From contig CAZSQZ010000009.1 in the NCBI GenBank assembly GCA_964609215.1, positions 16,394 to 80,393 on the forward strand: a stretch of 64,000 nt of DNA, in the 5' to 3' direction. Below are positions 31,451-41,140 of the stretch, in pieces. The translations under genes were made by a program, and so were the position numbers. The notes under the pieces are model-generated. The model searched no databases. It saw only the letters and a program-made list of their open reading frames with translations, and was not told where the DNA came from. This stretch comes from an uncultured Flavobacteriales bacterium. GTDB taxonomy: Bacteria; Bacteroidota; Bacteroidia; Flavobacteriales_D; JABDKJ01. Position 1 is the first letter of the stretch; the number at the start of each line of letters is the position of its first letter.

Positions 31451-32551
31451 CTACGGAGGTGAACCAAGAATGTCTTTAAGTTGGCCAATCATACTGCCTT
31501 TGCCATCAACAGTAATTTCACCGATCTTGTCAGCCACTTTTTCCACGAACTCCATTTCCTTCAATTTATAGAGCATTTGGTTGTTCTCCATTAATTTTGC
31601 TGTGTTCAACATACTTCTAGTAGAAGCTGTTTCTTCTCTTCTCATGATCATGCTGGCAGCGGCTTTTTTCTCTGCTACTAAAACTTGATTCATGATTTCT
31701 TTAATGTCGCCCGGAAGAATGATATCTTTAATACCGCAAGAAATCAATTCTACTCCAAGTGCTTTGCATTCTTTATGACTTCCGCTTTTTACAAATGAGC
31801 CTGCTTGGGTTTTTAGCTCTAAGAGTTCATCAAAGCTCAAACCACCTACATAAGCTCTTAAAGACATTTGCAAAATGGTATAGAGCTGCTTTCTGAAGTC
31901 TATGTTTTTAAGCAAAGCAAGAACTGGGTCAACGACTTTAAACGCAAATTCGAAGTTGATTCTTAAGTTGGCTTTATCTTTAGTCAAGATTTCTTGGCCG
32001 CTTAACTCCATTGATTGTTGTCTCAAATCAATAATATCAACTTGAACATTAGACAATTGCTTGTAAAAGTGATAAACACCTGGAGTCAGGGCTTCAAATA
32101 ATTTACCATCCTCTTGAACTAAACCCATTTCGAAATTTCTGATTTCAATCTTTTTCAAAATGTTGTTGTTCACCAGAGCATCTAATACTTTTTTAGAAAG
32201 GTTATCCTGAACTCTTACCTCTTTCATATTTAGTGTCTGAAATGTATAAAGAGAGTTTTCTTTCCAGTAAGCATAGATACCTTCGGTAAGAATTGATTGA
32301 AGAATGTTATTTCTATAAACCAATATAACTTGTTCGTCTGTGATTTCAAGTACGTCTAGTTGCTTGTATAGTTCTTCATTTTTCAATAACAAAGCCAGAT
32401 CAATTGGTGCATCAAAGCGCATCAAGGTATTGTAAATCTTTATTGTCTTATTGCTAAAGTTCCAGTGCTTACCGCTACTTAATACTTTGATCAAATCTTG
32501 ACCTTCAAATACGAGGCCTTTTTCGTACGTTTTAATTTTTACTCTAAACAT
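31451..32551 (-). CDS. SPFH/band-7 (slipin-like) domain protein
   Basis: SPFH core (ILTKDKANLRINFEFAFKVVDP...), followed by a coiled-coil-like AEKKAAASMIMRREETAS region typical of HflK/C-stomatin relatives. Confidence 0.6.
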   Translation of the reverse strand: MFRVKIKTYEKGLVFEGQDLIKVLSSGKHWNFSNKTIKIYNTLMRFDAPIDLALLLKNEELYKQLDVLEITDEQVILVYRNNILQSILTEGIYAYWKENSLYTFQTLNMKEVRVQDNLSKKVLDALVNNNILKKIEIRNFEMGLVQEDGKLFEALTPGVYHFYKQLSNVQVDIIDLRQQSMELSGQEILTKDKANLRINFEFAFKVVDPVLALLKNIDFRKQLYTILQMSLRAYVGGLSFDELLELKTQAGSFVKSGSHKECKALGVELISCGIKDIILPGDIKEIMNQVLVAEKKAAASMIMRREETASTRSMLNTAKLMENNQMLYKLKEMEFVEKVADKIGEITVDGKGSMIGQLKDILGSPP

Positions 32552-32858
32552 GACATATCTATTTTAATTATTCATTCAATTTTTATAAAAAAAACCAACC
32601 TTTCAGATCCATCTGAATTTAGCGGAGCAAACTCAAGCATGGTATAGTTTTATGATTTACATAATATGAGTTTTAGGCTGAGAAAAGAGTGTGAATTTTA
32701 CTGGCAGCGAAATCGCGTTGAGTAAAATTCTAGTTCAATTCTGTACCTAATGCCCAGGCTTTATTCAGATTTTTCATTCCATTGTCAAGGACAATTGATG
32801 AAAAGGACCTGAAGGTTGATTTTTTGAAAATGGGAGGTATTAACTGAGCTACCTAACC

Positions 32859-32935
32859 TCAATAGGGGTGGAATCGAACCACCGACCTTCTCGTTTATGC
32901 GAGATGCTCTAACCACTTGTGTTACTATATAAAAG
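32859..32935 (-). pseudogene. tRNA-like element (5'-disrupted), with a 6-nt anticodon-like loop
   Basis: Minus-strand reading gives a canonical D-loop/3' D-stem (AGTGGTTAGAGCA), variable AGGTC and T-arm GGTGG-TTCGATT-CCACC. The 5' D-stem and acceptor partner are absent. The anticodon-position hairpin TCTCG/CATAAA/CGAGA has a 6-nt loop. Confidence 0.4.
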
Positions 32936-32959
32936 TATAGCGCGTTTTCCAATTACGCC

Positions 32960-33050
32960 ACTGTGCCACAAGCACAGACAGGACTCGAACCTGTATAACA
33001 TGGGATTTATTTTCAGCAAATCCAAGTACTGAATTCATCATCAATATAAT
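32960..33050 (-). pseudogene. tRNA-like fragment (T-arm plus extended hairpins)
   Basis: Minus-strand ACAGG-TTCGAGT-CCTGT T-arm followed by a CTGTGC/GCACAG hairpin. An upstream GGATTT...AAATCC stem has a 9-nt loop. No acceptor pairing. Confidence 0.3.
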
Positions 33051-37961: not shown

Positions 37962-38696
37962 TTAACAGCTTTGTTCTAGTATGGTGTATGCAATAGAGAT
38001 TTTGTTAGCTTCATCTTCATTGACTTTTTCAAAATAAAGTTTCATCAAATTACTTTTCATTTTGTCTGAAGAAAGCCAATTCTGAAACACATTCTGTTGT
38101 TGTTCATTTAATCCCAAATCCGCGGGATATAAAACATATTCAACAAGTGGTTGAAATGATTCTTTATTGCGTGCTTCTTCCCAAATAATCAAAGCAGTTT
38201 CGAGATCATAATACATATGCATTATTTGAAATGCTTCCGAAATTGTTGAACTATTGAGTCTTATATTCTCTTTCCAAAGTTCTAGAAAGAATTGTTTTAT
38301 AGAGTGAATTTCTTTTGATTCCCAATTCTCCCATTTACAATAATTTAATTTTTCAAAAGTCAGAAAATCATCAATCAGGTTATATTCTTGGTCTTGAAAC
38401 AATTCTAAAATTCTGGGTAAAAAGTGCTTAAAGTCTTTTTCGTCTCCAAAAGTCGTAACCGCAGACCTAGTAAATTGACCCATGACTTTTATTGATAATT
38501 CTCTCAATGGGCCAGAAGTTAATTCGCTAATTTCTTTATCTGTAACACAACATTCACAGGACCTATCCCTCAGTCCATTTGCTAAGGGATAGGCATTGAA
38601 TACATCATACAATTGCTCTATTGCAGTTTCTAAATTCATCTTAGGATTTTTTTCTTCTTCTTTTATTTTTCCATGGCGCATTCTTTTGCCAATCAC
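37962..38696 (-). CDS. hypothetical protein in the RtcB operon
   Basis: 244-aa ORF. The likely start is the internal MNLETAIEQ, because the listed start overlaps the rtcB 3' end. Contains a CECC motif. No domain recognised. Confidence 0.35.
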
Positions 38697-40026
38697 CTGC
38701 CATAATACAACCGTAAGGCATTACTTCATCAATGACTTTTCCTAAACCATATTCATCCATCTGCGCTCGGACACTTGCTGCATTTTTATAAGCGCTTGGC
38801 AATTCGGTAACATCTATCTCATCAAAGAAAAAACGGATGTCTAAGCCCTCAGTTTCTTCTTGGAATACTTCCAATTTAGTTTTATCAGCTTTGTTCTTTC
38901 TATGTTGCGTTCTGCTAATATTTCTACCTGCTCCATGAGGAGCAAAGCCTAAATTACTGTCTGTGGTTTCGCCTTCCACAATTAAGACAGGTTCTGACAT
39001 ATTCAAAGGAATCAATCTAGGTCCAGTAATGTCAGGCATGAACTTTGGGTCAAGTGGTGTCGCACCTTTTGCATGATAGAACAAATCACCATCTTTAAAA
39101 ACAAAATTGTGTTCGTTCCAAAATCTGTTTTCTATTGTGGTATTTGTTTTCTCTCCAACAATATTGTGAAGGACTTCATGATTTAACTTTGTCCACTTTC
39201 TAATAATTTGCAATGCTTCCCAATAGCTTTTTCCTTCTTCTGTGTCAAATGGGATCCATGCATTTTGTTTCAAGGTATCTGGTGAAAGCTCTCTTCTGAA
39301 TTGTTCGGCAATTTTCATTCCTCTTGAATATAAATTGGCTCCAAATCCTCTGCTGCCATGGTGAGTAATCATCATGGTATTACCAGTGGCTTTGGACTTT
39401 CCGACAAATAAGAAATGGTTGCCATCTCCTTGAGTTCCCAAATGCGATCTAGCTGCAGAAATGCACTTCTGATTATTCAAAAATTCATTTGCTTCAATTT
39501 CCGCTAAAAGATCCATAGGAAATCTAAATTGATCTTCTCTAGATCTACCACCTGGACCAAAATGAGTGGTTGCTTGAGCAGCATCTAAAATTTCTTTTGG
39601 ATCGGCTTGACCAAAATCTGTTAGCATAACGGAGCAGCAAATATCTGCGCTGTGCATTCCTGGATGAATCGCGTTTTTTGAAACGGCAACACCTCCAACT
39701 GGAATAGTTCCTGCAGGACCTGTTGGACAGGCATCAGGCATTATTGCCCCTGCGACCATAGTTGGAGTCTTCATTAAAACATCCATTGAACCAATGACTG
39801 AATCTACATTCGTTTGTTCCAACTCGTTTTCTGCTTTAATGTTGATTGCAAATTCGACAGGTTTTTCTAAAAGCTCAATGGGGTCAGGAGTTTTGAATTG
39901 CTCTAAATATATAGCCAATTCATTGGCATTCATTTCGTTTGAATTGATATGATCCAAAGCTTCTTTAAACCATTTTCCTGGTCTGTAACCCATTTCGATT
40001 AAGTCGTTTCCGTTTAAATTTTTCAT
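38641..40026 (-). CDS. rtcB: RNA-splicing ligase RtcB (3'-phosphate/5'-hydroxyl RNA ligase)
   Basis: [10 protein letters not shown] and [11 protein letters not shown] motifs plus the conserved HPGMHSAD...C metal-site region. 461 aa. Characteristic RtcB/HSPC117 layout. Confidence 0.85.
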
Positions 40027-40090
40027 TGTTTTTGTATTTAACTTGGGTCAAAGGTGTAATCTATGTGCGCAATAATTTTGCGTAGATAAT

Positions 40091-41140
40091 TTGAAAGCTT
40101 TAATTTTGTATATGGCTCAAAATAAAAACGCTCTGATAAGATATAAAACCATTGATAAATGTCTTCAAAATCAATATAGAAAATGGACTTTGGAGGATTT
40201 AATTGATGCTTGTTCAGATGCATTGAACGAATATGAAGGACGAGATATAAATGTAAGCAAACGAACTGTTCAGCTTGATATTCAGTTAATGAGGAGTGAT
40301 AAACTTGGATATAATGCACCCATTATTGCTTATGAACGCAAATATTATCGTTATGAAGATGAGAATTATTCAATCACGAATATTCCTCTTACAGAAAATG
40401 ATATGAGTGTATTGACAGAGACGGTTGAAATGTTGAAACAGTTCAAAGATTTTTCATTGTTTTCTGAGTTGGGTGGTATTATTCATCGTCTAGAGGACAA
40501 AATTCACACGGAGAAAACTCAAAACTCTTCAGTCATTCATTTAGAAAAGAATGAGAATCTAAAAGGCTTGGAGCATTTAGATTTGCTTTATCAAGCGATT
40601 CTAAAAAAGATTTGTTTGACATTGGATTATCAATCCTTCAAGGCTAAGTCATCGAGTAGAATCGTTTTTCATCCATTTATTTTGAAAGAGTTTAACAATC
40701 GCTGGTTCGTGGTTGGAAGAAAAGGGAAGAGTAGTCCCATCATTACTTTTGCCTTAGATAGAATAATAGCTATTGACTATAATTTAGACATTCCATATTT
40801 AAACGAAGACTTTGATAGAGATGAGTATTACAAAAACACAATTGGTGTAACCGTACTTAACGAAACGCAGCTGAGAGAAGTTGATTTGAAAATTGACAAA
40901 TACAATGCACCTTATGTTTTGACCAAGCCCTTTCACCAATCGCAAGAGGTAATAGAAACAGATAGATATGGAAACGTAACGGTCAGAATCAAAGTTCATT
41001 TGAATTTCGAATTGGAACGTCTCATACTAGGTTTTGGAGATTCAATTCAAGTTCTTAAACCTAGACAATTGAAGAATAGAATAAGAAGGAAATTAAAAAA
41101 TGCGATTGAGAATTATGAGAAGGCTAAGGAACCTCATTAA
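40091..41140 (+). CDS. HTH plus WYL-domain transcriptional regulator, divergent from rtcB
   Basis: N-terminal winged-HTH-like segment (NALIRYKTIDKCL) and central WYL-like segment (NRWFVVGRKGKSSPIITFALDRI). 349 aa. The likely start is MAQNKN near 40112. Confidence 0.55.
   Translation: MKALILYMAQNKNALIRYKTIDKCLQNQYRKWTLEDLIDACSDALNEYEGRDINVSKRTVQLDIQLMRSDKLGYNAPIIAYERKYYRYEDENYSITNIPLTENDMSVLTETVEMLKQFKDFSLFSELGGIIHRLEDKIHTEKTQNSSVIHLEKNENLKGLEHLDLLYQAILKKICLTLDYQSFKAKSSSRIVFHPFILKEFNNRWFVVGRKGKSSPIITFALDRIIAIDYNLDIPYLNEDFDRDEYYKNTIGVTVLNETQLREVDLKIDKYNAPYVLTKPFHQSQEVIETDRYGNVTVRIKVHLNFELERLILGFGDSIQVLKPRQLKNRIRRKLKNAIENYEKAKEPH

What the first reader, a model, noticed from the sequence alone, without database searches (positions are those of the whole stretch)
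31451..41140. Accessory island combining a tRNA gene array with an RNA-repair gene set (RtcB, KxDG RNA ligase, two Pol-beta nucleotidyltransferases, WYL regulator, SPFH protein)
About 2.6 kb (32800-35450) has no protein-coding density but at least eight foldable minus-strand tRNA genes and six or more tRNA-like fragments. Embedded in it and directly adjacent are a minimal ATP-dependent ligase-like protein, RtcB, two tandem NTases with the GS...DxD motif, a hypothetical protein and a divergent WYL-domain regulator. RtcB seals 2',3'-cyclic-phosphate/5'-OH breaks, which are the products of anticodon nucleases and ribotoxins. KxDG ligases seal 5'-P/3'-OH breaks. Pol-beta NTases can rebuild or modify RNA 3' ends. 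In other bacteria, tRNA-like RNAs are encoded in RtcB/Ro60 loci, and phage tRNA arrays offset tRNA-depleting defences. Putting these together, a genomic pairing of a supplementary tRNA set with RNA end-healing and end-sealing enzymes suggests a tRNA restoration or counter-defence module. I am not aware of this architecture being described as a unit. The island is framed by conserved core genes (a metH-like gene and sigma/uvrA on one side, dgkA/rluD/ddl on the other).
Basis: partly seen in the sequence, partly recalled or inferred. Interest (0 to 1): 0.9.

Follow-up and report, generated by a model that had tools for sequence, protein, structure and literature searches.

The report
Accessory RNA-repair island with spare tRNAs
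A 10.5-kb insertion in a marine Flavobacteriales genome combines RNA-sealing and RNA-end-rebuilding enzymes, a set of unusual spare tRNA genes and several tRNA-shaped RNAs under one regulator; this is a rich new variant of an RNA-repair system that has been predicted by computer but never tested.

Summary
Eight minus-strand tRNA genes (34243-35192) pass ARAGORN and the Rfam threshold. The proteins are RtcB, an Rnl2-like KxDG ligase, two RlaP (PF10127) nucleotidyltransferases, a WYL-WCX regulator and an SPFH/Band-7 protein. The "hypothetical" is a HEAT-like helical repeat protein. The "tRNA-like fragments" are four tRNA genes interrupted by 28-52-nt hairpin inserts, a ~200-nt expanded tRNA-like RNA, and YrlA-topology permuted tRNA mimics upstream of SPFH.

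The island (~31324-41791) is a true indel. A relative has dgkA directly next to the small ORF and metH. Another relative carries RtcB-PrfH-TPR, tRNAs and Band-7 at the same site.

Around orthologous RtcB genes in 62 genomes, WYL (55), tRNA arrays (25), SPFH (21) and RlaP pairs (18) recur in shuffled combinations. One palindromic operator occurs exactly twice in the window, at the rtcB/WYL promoter and upstream of the tRNA-like RNAs and SPFH.

The novelty claim is overstated. RtcB-Band-7-"b7a-tRNA"-RlaP systems, rtcB-linked tRNA L-arrays and phage tRNA-plus-ligase sets are all published.

New here:
- the WYL-controlled architecture
- tRNA-Leu without a long variable arm
- non-canonical nucleotide 37 in array tRNAs
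- mini-insertions that target tRNA loops

Function (repairing and replacing damaged tRNAs) is inferred, not shown.

The parts
31324..41791 (.). Whole accessory island, inserted between the dgkA stop (41792) and the start of the small 80-aa ORF (31323)
   Evidence: The empty site in L086 has DUF1361-DgkA-small ORF-MetH-N contiguous. The same island sits at the same site in L082/L083. Different cargo sits at the same site in L084. GC content does not differ from the flanks.
40091..41140 (+). WYL-WCX transcription regulator, divergent from rtcB (the JGI gene call starts at 40112)
   Evidence: Pfam WYL 5.2e-11 and WCX 1.2e-12. PADLOC WYL models also match. An ortholog lies within 10 kb of RtcB in 55 of 62 genome loci and directly adjacent and divergent in 31 loci.
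40068..40084 (.). Operator 1: palindrome TACGCAAAATTATTGCG between WYL and rtcB
   Evidence: It is conserved in all 31 WYL|RtcB intergenic regions. The window holds only two such sites against 0.03 expected by chance.
38641..40026 (-). RtcB 3'-phosphate/5'-OH RNA ligase, a divergent Flavobacteriales/phage subfamily
   Evidence: Pfam RtcB 1.6e-35. Catalytic motifs align to PhoRtcB. Orthologs are 70-82% identical across Flavobacteriales. IMG/VR viral contigs carry homologs at 44-66% identity.
37962..38696 (-). Island-specific helical-repeat (HEAT-like) protein with conserved R-x-C-x-C-C and KHFLPRILE motifs; probably an adaptor
37204..37950 (-). RlaP nucleotidyltransferase, short paralog, GS...DxD motif intact
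   Evidence: PF10127 6.1e-61, full length. It always occurs together with the long paralog (18 of 18 loci).
36137..37207 (-). RlaP nucleotidyltransferase, long paralog with an unassigned C-terminal half
   Evidence: PF10127 2.1e-25 over residues 9-126. The GSRAYG...DTD motif is read directly from the sequence.
35317..35455 (-). tRNA-Ser(TGA) gene interrupted by a ~51-nt hairpin insert (35367-35417) in the anticodon loop; the anticodon stem has two mismatches
   Evidence: Aligned to intact array Ser-TGA genes. The insert is shared with L082, whose anticodon stem is intact. The same insert occurs at the same site in L048, L062, L049 and L004.
35198..35312 (-). tRNA-Ser(GCT) gene interrupted by a 28-nt hairpin insert (35215-35242) in the T loop after GGTTCG
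   Evidence: The insert is absent from the 95%-identical L082 copy.
35120..35192 (-). tRNA-Cys(GCA), intact here, with U73
   Evidence: The L082 ortholog carries a 28/29-nt T-loop insert.
35028..35111 (-). tRNA-Tyr(GTA), class II, intact
34842..34963 (-). tRNA-Pro(TGG) gene interrupted by a 50-nt insert (34858-34907) in the T loop
   Evidence: The L082 copy is intact.
34764..34835 (-). tRNA-Gln(TTG), intact
34685..34759 (-). tRNA-Leu(TAG), 75 nt, no long variable arm, A37
   Evidence: A37 occurs in 22 of 25 array copies, against G37 in 4 of 4 housekeeping copies.
34560..34680 (-). tRNA-Glu(TTC) gene interrupted by a 52-nt insert (34596-34647, reverse orientation of the same element) in the anticodon loop; the T loop is also 3 nt shorter
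   Evidence: The L082 copy is intact.
34474..34548 (-). tRNA-Leu(TAA), 75 nt, no long variable arm
34397..34469 (-). tRNA-His(GTG) with encoded G-1:C73
   Evidence: plus direct reading of the sequence.
34320..34393 (-). tRNA-Phe(GAA) with G37 instead of A37
   Evidence: The L082 ortholog carries a 28-nt T-loop insert.
34243..34315 (-). tRNA-Arg(ACG), intact
33578..34216 (-). Stand-alone Rnl2-like ATP-dependent RNA ligase, nucleotidyltransferase domain only
   Evidence: PF09414 1.3e-17. Motifs I, III, IV and V align to T4 Rnl2. It is found only in this lineage of the island (window, L082, L083) and in 0 of 62 other loci.
33487..33505 (.). Operator 2, the same palindrome (TACGCAAATATATTGCGTA), followed by a TTTG -7-like box and a leader hairpin at 33428-33453
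   Evidence: the hairpin is listed there on the + strand.
33193..33393 (-). ~200-nt expanded tRNA-like RNA. It has an acceptor stem (GUCUCUU/AAGAGAC), a D arm, a T arm (GUCGG-UUCGAAU-CCGAC) and a conserved internal expansion. It sits where other loci carry a Tyr-like tRNA, which I take (not verified) to be the published 'b7a-tRNA'.
   Evidence: It is ~98% identical to L082, while the whole spacer is 83% identical. Homologs occur in L010, L042 and L056, and 16 of 49 predicted pairs show compensatory changes. No Rfam family matches.
32824..33013 (-). Permuted tRNA-like modules (T arm, closed acceptor hairpin CUGUGC-UUGUG-GCACAG, D arm, stem-loop), i.e. the YrlA topology without a Ro60-binding stem
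   Evidence: Rfam YrlA 28.6 bits, below the gathering score of 69. Model R1 scores 35.6 bits (E 3e-7) at 32934-33000 and 21.4 bits at 32824-32892. The family is proven in 18 other loci: 95% of cells paired, 18 of 21 pairs compensatory.
31451..32551 (-). SPFH/Band-7 protein with no evident membrane segment
   Evidence: Pfam Band_7 3e-21. An ortholog lies within 10 kb of RtcB in 21 of 62 loci, always with the permuted tRNA-like RNA upstream.
31407..31434 (-). Intrinsic terminator-like hairpin that closes the island
   Evidence: 12-bp stem followed by a T run.
41124..41648 (-). Truncated transglycosylase-like ORF inside the island; role unknown
   Evidence: Pfam Transgly, C-terminal part only, 1.4e-9. 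It is absent from all other loci.

Best explanation
The island is a horizontally acquired RNA-damage response module controlled by a WYL regulator. It belongs to the RtcB-Band-7-tRNA-like class of predicted RNA-repair systems and is fused to an accessory, L-array-like set of tRNA genes.

Proposed working:
1. The WYL-WCX regulator binds one palindromic operator that is present at two promoters. One promoter drives rtcB, the HEAT-like protein and the two rlaP genes. The other drives the tRNA-like RNAs and SPFH. The regulator would release both when RNA or ssDNA damage products appear (inferred).
2. RtcB reseals 2',3'-cyclic-phosphate/5'-OH breaks made by anticodon nucleases or ribotoxins in tRNA or rRNA (family biochemistry; catalytic residues are present).
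3. The RlaP pair adds back one or two nucleotides lost at the 3' end of the 5' fragment (activity shown for Pseudomonas RlaP).
4. The Rnl2-like ligase can then seal the resulting 3'-OH ends, provided the 5' end is phosphorylated by an enzyme not encoded in the island (inferred).
5. SPFH, the HEAT-like protein and the tRNA-shaped RNAs act as scaffold, cofactor or decoy (inferred).
6. The spare tRNAs refill the pool. Several carry conserved departures from canonical tRNAs: no long variable arm in tRNA-Leu, and an unusual nucleotide 37 in Leu, Phe, Asp, Glu and Pro. These changes may make them poor substrates for the nucleases that hit the housekeeping tRNAs (inferred).

Four of the twelve tRNA genes in this copy are already inactivated by small hairpin insertions. 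The array is therefore dispensable under ordinary conditions.
For: Parts and catalytic motifs are present.

Accessory status:
- L086 shows the empty site; L082/83 carry the same island; L084 carries RtcB-PrfH-TPR, 11 tRNAs and Band-7 at the same site.
- Housekeeping and array isoacceptors are both seen within the fetched 21-kb stretches of L017, L020 and L063.

Recurrent linkage around orthologous RtcB in 62 genomes:
- WYL in 55, tRNA array of 3 or more genes in 25, SPFH in 21, RlaP pair in 18, a second RtcB paralog in 18.
- Arrays reach 21 tRNAs in a conserved order.

Shared operator: it is conserved in 31 of 31 WYL|RtcB spacers. It occurs exactly twice in the 64-kb window, against 0.03 expected, in front of the two transcription units.

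Structured tRNA-like RNAs upstream of SPFH:
- Permuted module: 95.2% of cells paired against 39-51% when slid, 18 of 21 pairs compensatory, 0 of 500 shuffles as good.
- Model R1 scores 61-85 bits in exactly the SPFH-bearing loci.
- The 200-nt RNA shows covariation and is ~98% conserved between the window and L082.

Conserved non-canonical tRNA features:
- Array Leu is 74-75 nt, housekeeping Leu 83-85 nt.
- Nucleotide-37 deviations are listed.
- Leu tRNAs without the long variable arm also sit next to the same RtcB subfamily in viral contigs.

Literature:
- RlaP adds 1-2 NMP to damaged RNA 3' ends and restores aminoacylation of repaired tRNA (PMC12776372).
- An RtcB-Band-7-b7a-tRNA system was predicted (10.1101/312249).
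- A tRNA L-array is induced together with rtcB under translational stress (PMC8421152).
- Phage tRNAs evade anticodon nucleases through anticodon-loop changes (PMC10264068).
Against: - There are no expression, cleavage or ligation data.
- No toxin or nuclease partner was identified in the window.
- The island has no RtcA, Pnkp-type kinase/phosphatase, Hen1 or archease. The ATP-ligase branch therefore lacks an evident 5'-kinase, and the RlaP product (3'-OH) is not an RtcB substrate (PMC12776372 discussion).
- A third of the tRNA genes here are disrupted, and array content varies from 0 to 21 genes among relatives. This pattern also fits neutral carriage.
- The unusual nucleotide 37 could reflect relaxed constraint rather than selected resistance. 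Only about 15 housekeeping tRNAs were available for comparison.
- Two terminator-like hairpins lie between rlaP and the array, and no operator precedes the array. Its co-regulation is therefore not shown.
- The window's permuted tRNA-like RNA scores well below the family norm (35.6 bits against 61-85).
Confidence: 0.6

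Rival explanations
1. The tRNA array is a decaying passenger. Only WYL-RtcB (with or without RlaP and SPFH) is a working repair unit. The tRNA genes are horizontally transferred, dispensable DNA on the way to loss, and their odd features reflect relaxed constraint.
For: - Four of twelve tRNA genes in the window are disrupted, and two of these show further decay (Ser-TGA anticodon-stem mismatches, Glu T-loop deletion).
- The 95%-identical L082 array has different genes disrupted and one extra gene.
- 37 of 62 RtcB loci have no array within 10 kb.
- Nucleotide 37 is a pyrimidine in most array Asp and Glu tRNAs.
Against: - Gene order and cloverleaf integrity are kept across many genera, with up to 21 genes per array.
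- The same non-canonical states recur across loci: Leu without a V arm in 34 of 39 copies; Asp U37 in 16 of 19. Shared ancestry was not excluded, but random decay should not keep them this uniform.
- Identity elements are intact (His G-1:C73, Cys U73, Leu A73).
- The Anabaena L-array tRNAs are induced and aminoacylated (PMC8421152).
Confidence: 0.2
2. The island is a remnant of a phage or mobile element. The RtcB and tRNA set would be counter-defence cargo that served a virus or integrative element against host anticodon nucleases, later stranded in the chromosome.
For: - The same RtcB subfamily occurs in 49 IMG/VR contigs (44-66% identity). About nine of these lie next to tRNA clusters, some with tRNA-Leu lacking the V arm.
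- In relatives, islands often abut a housekeeping tRNA gene (Leu-TAG, Leu-CAA, Met or Phe next to WYL).
- Jumbo phages pair tRNAs with RtcB, Rnl and RlaP (PMC7824862).
Against: - No Pfam-recognisable integrase, transposase or virion gene was found among the island's ORFs of 75 aa or more.
- WYL, RlaP and SPFH homologs are absent from all 49 viral loci.
- Island GC content equals that of the flanks.
- The WYL-RtcB core is retained across whole families of Flavobacteriales at 70-82% identity, which suggests host benefit.
Confidence: 0.12
3. The tRNAs and tRNA-like RNAs work as decoys, sensors or cofactors, not in translation. They would soak up nucleases, feed fragments to the WYL sensor, or guide RtcB/SPFH, as has been proposed for YrlA with Ro60.
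For: - The permuted modules have the YrlA topology, with a closed acceptor stem that cannot be aminoacylated.
- The 200-nt RNA has a tRNA frame but no anticodon arm of normal size.
- A sponge role was proposed for operonic tRNAs (PMC8421152).
- A competitive-inhibitor role was proposed for YrlA (PMC7790460).
Against: The eight intact tRNAs keep the full cloverleaf, anticodon loops and synthetase identity elements, which a decoy would not need. This reading is compatible with the main explanation for the tRNA-like RNAs, so it is only partly a rival.
Confidence: 0.15
4. The 28-52-nt inserts are bacterial protein-spliced tRNA introns whose exons are joined by the adjacent RtcB.
For: - The inserts sit in anticodon loops (near 37/38 in Ser-TGA) and T loops. 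Archaeal BHB introns also occur in these regions (from my own knowledge).
- They are homologous across different tRNAs, which recalls intron transposition.
- The Rfam tRNA model spans the interrupted Tyr-like genes as one tRNA.
- RtcB is the archaeal and metazoan splicing ligase.
Against: - The same element occurs in both orientations, which argues for insertion at the DNA level.
- The folds give a three-way junction, not a bulge-helix-bulge motif.
- No splicing endonuclease candidate exists; the only unassigned protein is a HEAT-like solenoid.
- The interrupted copies in the window show secondary decay.
- No known ribozyme family matches.
Confidence: 0.06
5. The region is an ordinary housekeeping tRNA operon that happens to lie beside unrelated genes.
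For: The tRNAs score as bona fide tRNAs.
Against: - The whole block is missing from a relative with intact flanks.
- Duplicate housekeeping isoacceptors lie in the same fetched stretches in relatives.
- The linkage to RtcB recurs in 25 of 62 genomes in different chromosomal contexts.
Confidence: 0.02

Closest known systems
RtcB-Band-7 (SPFH)-'b7a-tRNA' RNA-repair system with RlaP (Burroughs & Aravind, NAR 2016; not held in the library, known here through citations in 10.1101/312249 and PMC12776372)
   Same: RtcB lies next to an SPFH/Band-7 protein and a tRNA-like non-coding RNA. RlaP (PF10127) nucleotidyltransferases sit in the same neighbourhood. The system spreads laterally and has shuffled modules.
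   Different: - A WYL-WCX regulator with one operator at two promoters.
- An obligate pair of RlaP paralogs.
- An added Rnl2-like ligase in this lineage.
- A HEAT-like accessory protein.
- Up to 21 full tRNA genes rather than a single tRNA-like gene.
- Two further RNA families: permuted YrlA-like modules and a 200-nt expanded tRNA-like RNA.
I could not read the 2016 paper, so some of these may already be noted there.
[quoted passage not shown]
   Same: The tRNAs are supernumerary and horizontally spread. The array approaches one tRNA per amino acid and is linked to RNA-processing genes including rtcB. Some member genes are pseudogenes.
   Different: - Here rtcB is physically adjacent; in Anabaena it is unlinked.
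- The arrays are shorter (8 intact genes here, up to 21 in relatives).
- No HNH homing endonuclease was seen.
- Regulation is by a WYL palindrome, not 9-nt direct repeats.
- Leu without a V arm and the nucleotide-37 changes were not found in that paper by word search.
rsr-yrlBA-rtcBA operon: Ro60 with YrlA Y RNA (Chen et al. 2014; Hughes et al. 2020, PMC7790460)
   Same: A tRNA-mimic RNA with T arm, closed acceptor hairpin and D arm is encoded beside RtcB. The YrlA covariance model aligns its core onto the modules.
   Different: - There is no Ro60/TROVE, RtcA or RtcR.
- The scores (28 bits) are far below the YrlA gathering score (69).
- The Ro60-binding stem is absent.
- The modules are tandem and are paired with SPFH.
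Phage tRNA sets with RNA ligases and RlaP (T4 Pnkp/Rnl; jumbo phages, PMC7824862) and nuclease-evading phage tRNAs (PMC10264068)
   Same: They combine replacement tRNAs with sealing and end-rebuilding enzymes. Their tRNAs have altered anticodon loops. The same RtcB subfamily and Leu tRNAs without a V arm occur in viral contigs.
   Different: This unit is chromosomal and regulated by the host. It has SPFH and WYL, which the viral loci lack, and it has no Pnkp.
RtcB2-PrfH ribosome repair module (PMC9304027, PMC13166195)
   Same: It is an RtcB-centred rescue of damaged translation machinery. A relative (L084) carries RtcB-PrfH-TPR at the very same chromosomal site, with tRNAs and Band-7.
   Different: The window has no PrfH or RF-1 domain protein.

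Membership tests
RtcB-Band-7-b7a-tRNA repair system (Burroughs & Aravind 2016) | RtcB-family ligase with intact active site | tested here: met
   Pfam RtcB 1.6e-35. The Cys, His and HGAGR motifs align to PhoRtcB.
RtcB-Band-7-b7a-tRNA repair system (Burroughs & Aravind 2016) | SPFH/Band-7 protein in the same neighbourhood | tested here: met
   Band_7 3e-21 at 31451-32551. It recurs in 21 of 62 ortholog loci.
RtcB-Band-7-b7a-tRNA repair system (Burroughs & Aravind 2016) | tRNA-like non-coding RNA encoded next to the Band-7 gene | tested here: met
   A 200-nt tRNA-like RNA and permuted modules lie upstream of SPFH. In relatives a Tyr-like tRNA and a permuted module are present in every SPFH locus. 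Whether these equal the published b7a-tRNA could not be checked because the paper is not held.
RtcB-Band-7-b7a-tRNA repair system (Burroughs & Aravind 2016) | Associated RlaP (PF10127) nucleotidyltransferase | tested here: met
   Two PF10127 proteins, 6.1e-61 and 2.1e-25.
RtcB-Band-7-b7a-tRNA repair system (Burroughs & Aravind 2016) | Demonstrated RNA-repair activity in vivo | not testable with these tools
   No experimental data exist for this system. Citing papers call it a prediction.
Canonical Rtc operon (RtcR-RtcA-RtcB) | RtcA cyclase and sigma-54/CARF activator RtcR | tested here: not met
   No island ORF of 75 aa or more matches RtcA, or matches sigma-54 or CARF domains. The regulator is WYL-WCX.
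Ro60-YrlA (Y RNA) module | YrlA RNA reaching the Rfam gathering score | tested here: not met
   28.6 bits in the window and 28.4 bits in L045, against a gathering score of 69. Only the tRNA-like core aligns.
Ro60-YrlA (Y RNA) module | Ro60/TROVE protein adjacent | tested here: not met
   No TROVE domain was found among the island proteins.
tRNA L-array (Santamaria-Gomez 2021) | Long array of supernumerary tRNA genes spread by horizontal transfer | tested here: inconclusive
   The supernumerary and horizontally transferred nature is shown. The window's array has only 8 intact and 4 disrupted genes. Relatives reach 17-21 genes in a conserved order. The published size criterion is not met in the window itself.
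tRNA L-array (Santamaria-Gomez 2021) | Induction under translational stress | not testable with these tools
   No transcriptome data are available.
T4-type healing-and-sealing pathway (Pnkp + Rnl) | 5'-kinase/3'-phosphatase to prepare ends for the ATP-dependent ligase | tested here: not met
   The Rnl2-like ligase is present, but no kinase or phosphatase domain was found in the island.
RtcB2-PrfH ribosome repair | PrfH (RF-1 domain) protein next to RtcB | tested here: not met
   It is absent from the window. It is present in L084 at the same chromosomal site.
Archaeal/eukaryal protein-spliced tRNA introns | Bulge-helix-bulge motif at the exon-intron junctions and a splicing endonuclease | tested here: not met
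   The folds give two hairpins in a multiloop, and the element occurs in both orientations. There is no endonuclease candidate.

The most novel reading that the evidence does not exclude
The island encodes a cellular 'replace and repair' immunity against tRNA-cleaving toxins. Its spare tRNAs would be built to escape the nucleases (tRNA-Leu stripped of the long variable arm; altered nucleotide 37 in Leu, Phe, Asp, Glu and Pro). Two new tRNA-shaped RNAs together with SPFH would organise or regulate RtcB, RlaP and Rnl.

The boldest extension is that the 28-52-nt elements sitting in T loops and anticodon loops are not dead insertions. They would be removable, making them the first protein-spliced tRNA introns in Bacteria, with RtcB as the joining ligase.
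Probability: 0.07. Interest if true: 0.95.

Novelty: new variant of a known kind. Interest (0 to 1): 0.6.

Why it matters
Bacterial RtcB has few established substrates. The Band-7/tRNA-like branch of RNA repair has never been tested experimentally.

This Flavobacteriales family offers a compact and testable system:
- a defined operator and regulator
- two ligase chemistries plus the nucleotide-adding RlaP pair in one locus; this bears on the RlaP/RtcB end-incompatibility problem raised in PMC12776372
- two covariation-supported tRNA-mimic RNAs
- natural variants with and without each module

The array tRNAs also matter. If tRNA-Leu without the variable arm and the changed nucleotide 37 are adaptations, then cells, not only phages, keep nuclease-resistant backup tRNAs.

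The mini-insertions that land only in tRNA loops are a new kind of small mobile element. They also show how dispensable these tRNA genes are.

Tried and rejected
- Reading Burroughs & Aravind 2016 by DOI and by PMC id: the paper is not held. The prior art therefore rests on citing papers and on my memory of the abstract.
- Known RNA families for the fragments: an E-value-mode Rfam scan of 32400-36300 found no ribozyme, tmRNA or Y RNA above threshold, only sub-threshold YrlA.
- Compositional evidence for foreign origin: the island's GC content equals that of the flanks.
- att or direct repeats at the island ends: the empty-site spacer in L086 is too diverged to align.
- A loose motif search for the insert gave mostly noise. 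A stricter pattern kept 14 true instances, all inside tRNA or tRNA-like genes.
- A viral-contig scan for the insert found nothing.
- The metagenome scan gave 32 exact matches, but only one true instance (TARA scaffold L148). Most of the others fall in one unrelated, recurring conserved sequence.
- The afdb50 fold library was unavailable.
- The sigma-70 promoter scan was no better than chance (35 sites against 35.1 expected). Bacteroidota promoters are not covered by that tool.
- PADLOC recognised nothing except WYL.
- R1 hits of 25-49 bits inside the arrays are tail-to-head junctions of neighbouring tRNAs, not extra modules.
- The compensatory GTAGG/CCTAC T stem of the interrupted Pro gene is not evidence of selection after the insertion, because the uninterrupted L082 copy has the same stem.

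Full report

Yes. ARAGORN finds exactly eight tRNA genes in the 64-kb window, all on the minus strand between 34243 and 35192: Arg-ACG, Phe-GAA, His-GTG, Leu-TAA, Leu-TAG, Gln-TTG, Tyr-GTA and Cys-GCA. All eight reach the Rfam tRNA gathering score, at 46.7-69.6 bits.

Pfam and NCBIfam identify the surrounding ORFs:
- SPFH/Band-7: 31451-32551
- PF09414 RNA ligase: 33578-34216
- two PF10127 "RlaP" Pol-beta nucleotidyltransferases: 36137-37207 and 37204-37950
- RtcB: 38641-40026
- a divergent WYL-WCX regulator: 40091-41140, + strand

RtcB keeps every metal-ligand and nucleophile motif of P. horikoshii RtcB. The ligase keeps motifs I (EKIDGTN), III, IV and V of T4 Rnl2 but has only the nucleotidyltransferase domain.

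**2. What the "tRNA-like fragments" are.**

I compared the non-coding stretches with about 300 tRNAs from related arrays. The stretches upstream of and inside the array are tRNA genes in array register, each broken by a discrete insert:

| Gene | Coordinates | Insert |
|---|---|---|
| Ser-TGA | 35317-35455 | ~51 nt, anticodon loop |
| Ser-GCT | 35198-35312 | 28 nt, T loop |
| Pro-TGG | 34842-34963 | 50 nt, T loop |
| Glu-TTC | 34560-34680 | 52 nt, anticodon loop, plus a 3-nt T-loop deletion |

Between the ligase gene and SPFH lie two further kinds of tRNA-shaped RNA.

(a) A ~200-nt RNA at 33193-33393 has a tRNA acceptor stem, D arm and T arm around a large conserved expansion. It is ~98% identical to the sister island L082, while the whole spacer is 83% identical. 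It has homologs in Tamlana, Croceivirga and Winogradskyella, with compensatory changes in 16 of 49 predicted pairs.

(b) Circularly permuted tRNA-like modules lie at 32824-33013. Each has a T arm, an acceptor stem closed by a loop, a D arm and a closing helix. This is the topology of the Y-RNA-like YrlA. The Rfam YrlA model aligns its core there, but at 28.6 bits against a gathering score of 69.

The module family is solid in relatives. In 18 loci, 95.2% of cells are paired against 39-51% when the partners are slid. Eighteen of 21 pairs show compensatory changes, and 0 of 500 shuffles do as well. A covariance model built from these sequences scores 61-85 bits in exactly the loci that carry SPFH. 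In the window it scores 35.6 bits (E 3e-7), so the window's copy is diverged.

**3. Accessory or core?**

The window is a JGI marine metagenome contig from a Bacteroidota organism. I used the flanking MetH-N protein to find the closest relatives.

- L086 (81% identity) has DUF1361-DgkA-small ORF-MetH-N-sigma-UvrA contiguous, with a 47-nt spacer where the island would be.
- L082/L083 (96%) carry the same island at the same site.
- L084 (84%) carries RtcB-PrfH-TPR, 11 tRNAs and Band-7 at that site.

The block ~31324-41791 is therefore an insertion at a hotspot with exchangeable repair cargo. Its GC content does not stand out. No Pfam-recognisable integrase or transposase is present among the island's ORFs.

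Array tRNAs duplicate housekeeping isoacceptors found in the same fetched 21-kb stretches: Leu-TAG in L017 and L020, and Phe-GAA in L063.

**4. Is the linkage recurrent?**

The RtcB belongs to a subfamily that is 70-82% identical across Flavobacteriales. It also occurs in Saprospiraceae and Cytophagales. In 62 genome neighbourhoods of at least 19 kb:
- 55 have the WYL gene; it is directly adjacent and divergent in 31 loci
- 25 have an array of three or more tRNAs, reaching 21 genes in a conserved order (Lys Ser Pro Ser Ala Asn Cys Tyr Gly Trp Arg Asp Glu Val Met Leu Leu Gln His Phe Arg)
- 21 have SPFH
- 18 have the RlaP pair, always both paralogs
- 18 have a second RtcB paralog at 27% identity
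- none has the Rnl2-like ligase, which is specific to the window's lineage

The modules are shuffled freely, the modular pattern I recall from Burroughs & Aravind's description of RNA-repair systems.

The same RtcB subfamily occurs in 49 IMG/VR contigs at 44-66% identity. About nine of these lie beside tRNA clusters, but none has WYL, RlaP or SPFH.

**5. Regulation.**

All 31 WYL|RtcB intergenic regions share the palindrome TACGCAAA-N4-TTGCG(T/C)A, placed just upstream of a Bacteroidota-type TTTG -7 box.

In the window this palindrome occurs exactly twice against 0.03 expected by chance. One copy is at 40068-40084, between WYL and rtcB. The other is at 33487-33505, followed by a TTTG box, a leader hairpin (33428-33453), the 200-nt RNA, the permuted modules and SPFH.

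This points to two co-regulated units:
- rtcB, the HEAT-like gene, rlaP and rlaP
- the tRNA-like RNAs and SPFH

The array lies between them, behind two terminator-like hairpins (about 35925-35960 and 35470-35495, read). Its own control is not resolved.

**6. Unusual tRNAs.**

- Array tRNA-Leu genes are 74-75 nt and lack the long variable arm in 34 of 39 cases. The Leu genes outside arrays are 83-85 nt. Ser and Tyr keep their long arms.
- Nucleotide 37 departs from the canonical state in a conserved way:

| tRNA | Array copies | Housekeeping copies |
|---|---|---|
| Leu-TAG | A37 in 22/25 | G37 in 4/4 |
| Phe | G37 in 12/17 | A37 in 2/2 |
| Asp | U37 in 16/19 | none in the sample |
| Glu | U37 in 11/13 | none in the sample |
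| Pro | A37 in 20/22 | A37 in 2/2 solo copies |
| Leu-TAA | G37 in 10/15 | A37 in 1/1 |

- CCA is not encoded.
- Identity elements are kept: His G-1:C73, Cys U73 and Leu A73.
- Leu tRNAs without the variable arm also occur beside the related RtcB in viral contigs.

Published work shows that phage tRNAs escape anticodon nucleases through anticodon-loop changes (PMC10264068). By analogy the array tRNAs may be nuclease-resistant spares. This is an inference, and relaxed constraint is the alternative.

**7. The mini-insertions.**

The window and L082 arrays are ~95% identical but differ by clean indels inside tRNA loops:
- The window has inserts in Ser-GCT, Pro and Glu.
- L082 has inserts in Cys and Phe.
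- Both have the insert in Ser-TGA.
- L082 also has one extra tRNA, with anticodon TTA.

The inserts form one family: 5'-ATG[hairpin]TTCAACGAATCC...[hairpin]...TGAGTT-3', placed after GAA and before AA. The 28-nt forms look like short derivatives. The element occurs in both orientations.

It recurs at the same sites in Ser, Glu, Pro and Tyr-like tRNAs of other genera. All 14 clear instances in 1.63 Mb lie inside tRNA or tRNA-like genes.

Several points favour a small DNA element that targets tRNA loops and survives only in dispensable tRNA genes:
- the element occurs in both orientations
- the folds give a three-way junction rather than a bulge-helix-bulge motif
- no endonuclease candidate exists
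- the interrupted copies in the window show further decay

An RtcB-spliced intron is not excluded, but I rate it at about 6-7%.

**8. Comparison with what is known.**

- PF10127 was named RlaP because it sits beside RNA ligases. Pseudomonas RlaP adds one or two nucleotides to damaged RNA 3' ends and is needed to restore aminoacylation of over-trimmed tRNA (PMC12776372).
- Burroughs & Aravind 2016 predicted an RtcB-Band-7 system with a "band-7-associated tRNA", with YrlA occasionally placed next to Band-7 (quoted in 10.1101/312249).
- P. aeruginosa has an SPFH gene inside its rtc locus (PMC13086221).
- L-arrays of supernumerary tRNAs are induced together with rtcB under translational stress (PMC8421152).
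- Jumbo phages combine tRNAs, RtcB or Rnl, and RlaP (PMC7824862).

The architecture is therefore a variant of a known, still untested kind, and not an undescribed unit. As far as I could check, the following are new:
- the WYL operator at two promoters
- the obligate RlaP pair together with both ligase chemistries
- the HEAT-like protein
- the full-size arrays fused to the Band-7 system
- the two RNA families
- tRNA-Leu without a variable arm
- the nucleotide-37 pattern
- the loop-targeting mini-elements

**9. Verdict.**

| Item | Judgement |
|---|---|
| Observation | confirmed |
| Best explanation | a WYL-controlled "repair and replace" response to tRNA/rRNA cleavage, confidence about 0.6 |
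| Novelty | new variant of a known kind |
| Interest | 0.6 |

Noticed in passing
L002-L081, rtcB 5' leaders (e.g. L010, L007, L017; sequences); window 33428-33453: Most relatives have a conserved GC-rich leader hairpin (GCUCCGUCGA...UCGGCGGAGC, with compensatory variants) between the operator/promoter and rtcB. The window lacks it upstream of rtcB but has a similar hairpin after operator 2. It could be an attenuator or a processing site.
   Followed up: partly
L084 372-2918 (GCA_039028335.1): At the same dgkA/metH hotspot, a relative carries RtcB-PrfH(RF-1)-TPR, i.e. the ribosome-repair RtcB2-PrfH module. It is joined to an 11-tRNA array and Band-7. Ribosome-repair and tRNA-linked cargo therefore swap at one site.
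   Followed up: partly
L082 6511-6584 (also L083 1263-1336): The sister array has an extra 74-nt tRNA called with anticodon TTA ('Stop') and A33 in place of U33. It lies between Leu-TAA and His and is cleanly absent from the window. Arrays in L032 and L063 hold odd 74-nt 'SeC-TCA' and 81-nt 'Val-GAC' calls. These may be suppressor-like or degenerate tRNAs.
   Followed up: no
L022 9758-9841, L030 9856-9931, L033 9430-9513, L037 9612-9767 (all minus strand): Flavo-1 RNA (RF01705) passes its gathering score between SPFH and RtcB on the opposite strand in several relatives. It is not found in the window.
   Followed up: no
window 35500-35680 (minus strand); L030 6953, L033 4584, L037 5738, L051 4635, L061 6188 and others: A TAnnTTTG-type promoter box is followed by a short conserved transcript or 39-aa ORF, and then by a strong hairpin with a T run (35470-35495) directly in front of the first array tRNA. 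Relatives show a conserved TTTGCA(T/A)CGCATTTCAACCAAAA...GTTGAATTAAAAATTAGAAACTATG element near WYL. The function is unknown. It may control read-through into the array.
   Followed up: no
window 41124-41648 (minus strand): A 174-aa ORF with only the C-terminal part of a transglycosylase domain sits inside the island next to WYL. It has no counterpart in any related locus and is probably a gene fragment carried along.
   Followed up: partly
window 30078-31323 (minus strand): The metH-like gene encodes only the N-terminal homocysteine-binding domain (336 aa) as a stand-alone protein. Its start overlaps the end of a conserved 80-aa hydrophobic ORF upstream. Both are conserved in relatives with and without the island.
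   Followed up: no
L017, L020, L021, L023 (Leu-TAG); L007, L065 (Leu-CAA); L004, L055 (Met); L039, L063 (Phe): In many genomes the WYL end of the module abuts a housekeeping tRNA gene. This suggests tRNA genes as integration sites in those lineages. The window's island is not next to one.
   Followed up: no
L148 (TARA_R110000751 scaffold150707_1) about 2170-2350: A marine metagenome scaffold has a Tyr-like tRNA carrying both the anticodon-loop insert and a T-loop insert of the same element family. L062 Ser-TGA is also doubly hit.
   Followed up: partly
tRNA arrays of L002, L015, L041, L042, L048, L050, L056 (R1 hits of 40-49 bits): Tail-to-head junctions of adjacent array tRNAs score moderately with the permuted-module model. 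This suggests how a permuted tRNA mimic could arise from two neighbouring tRNA genes.
   Followed up: no
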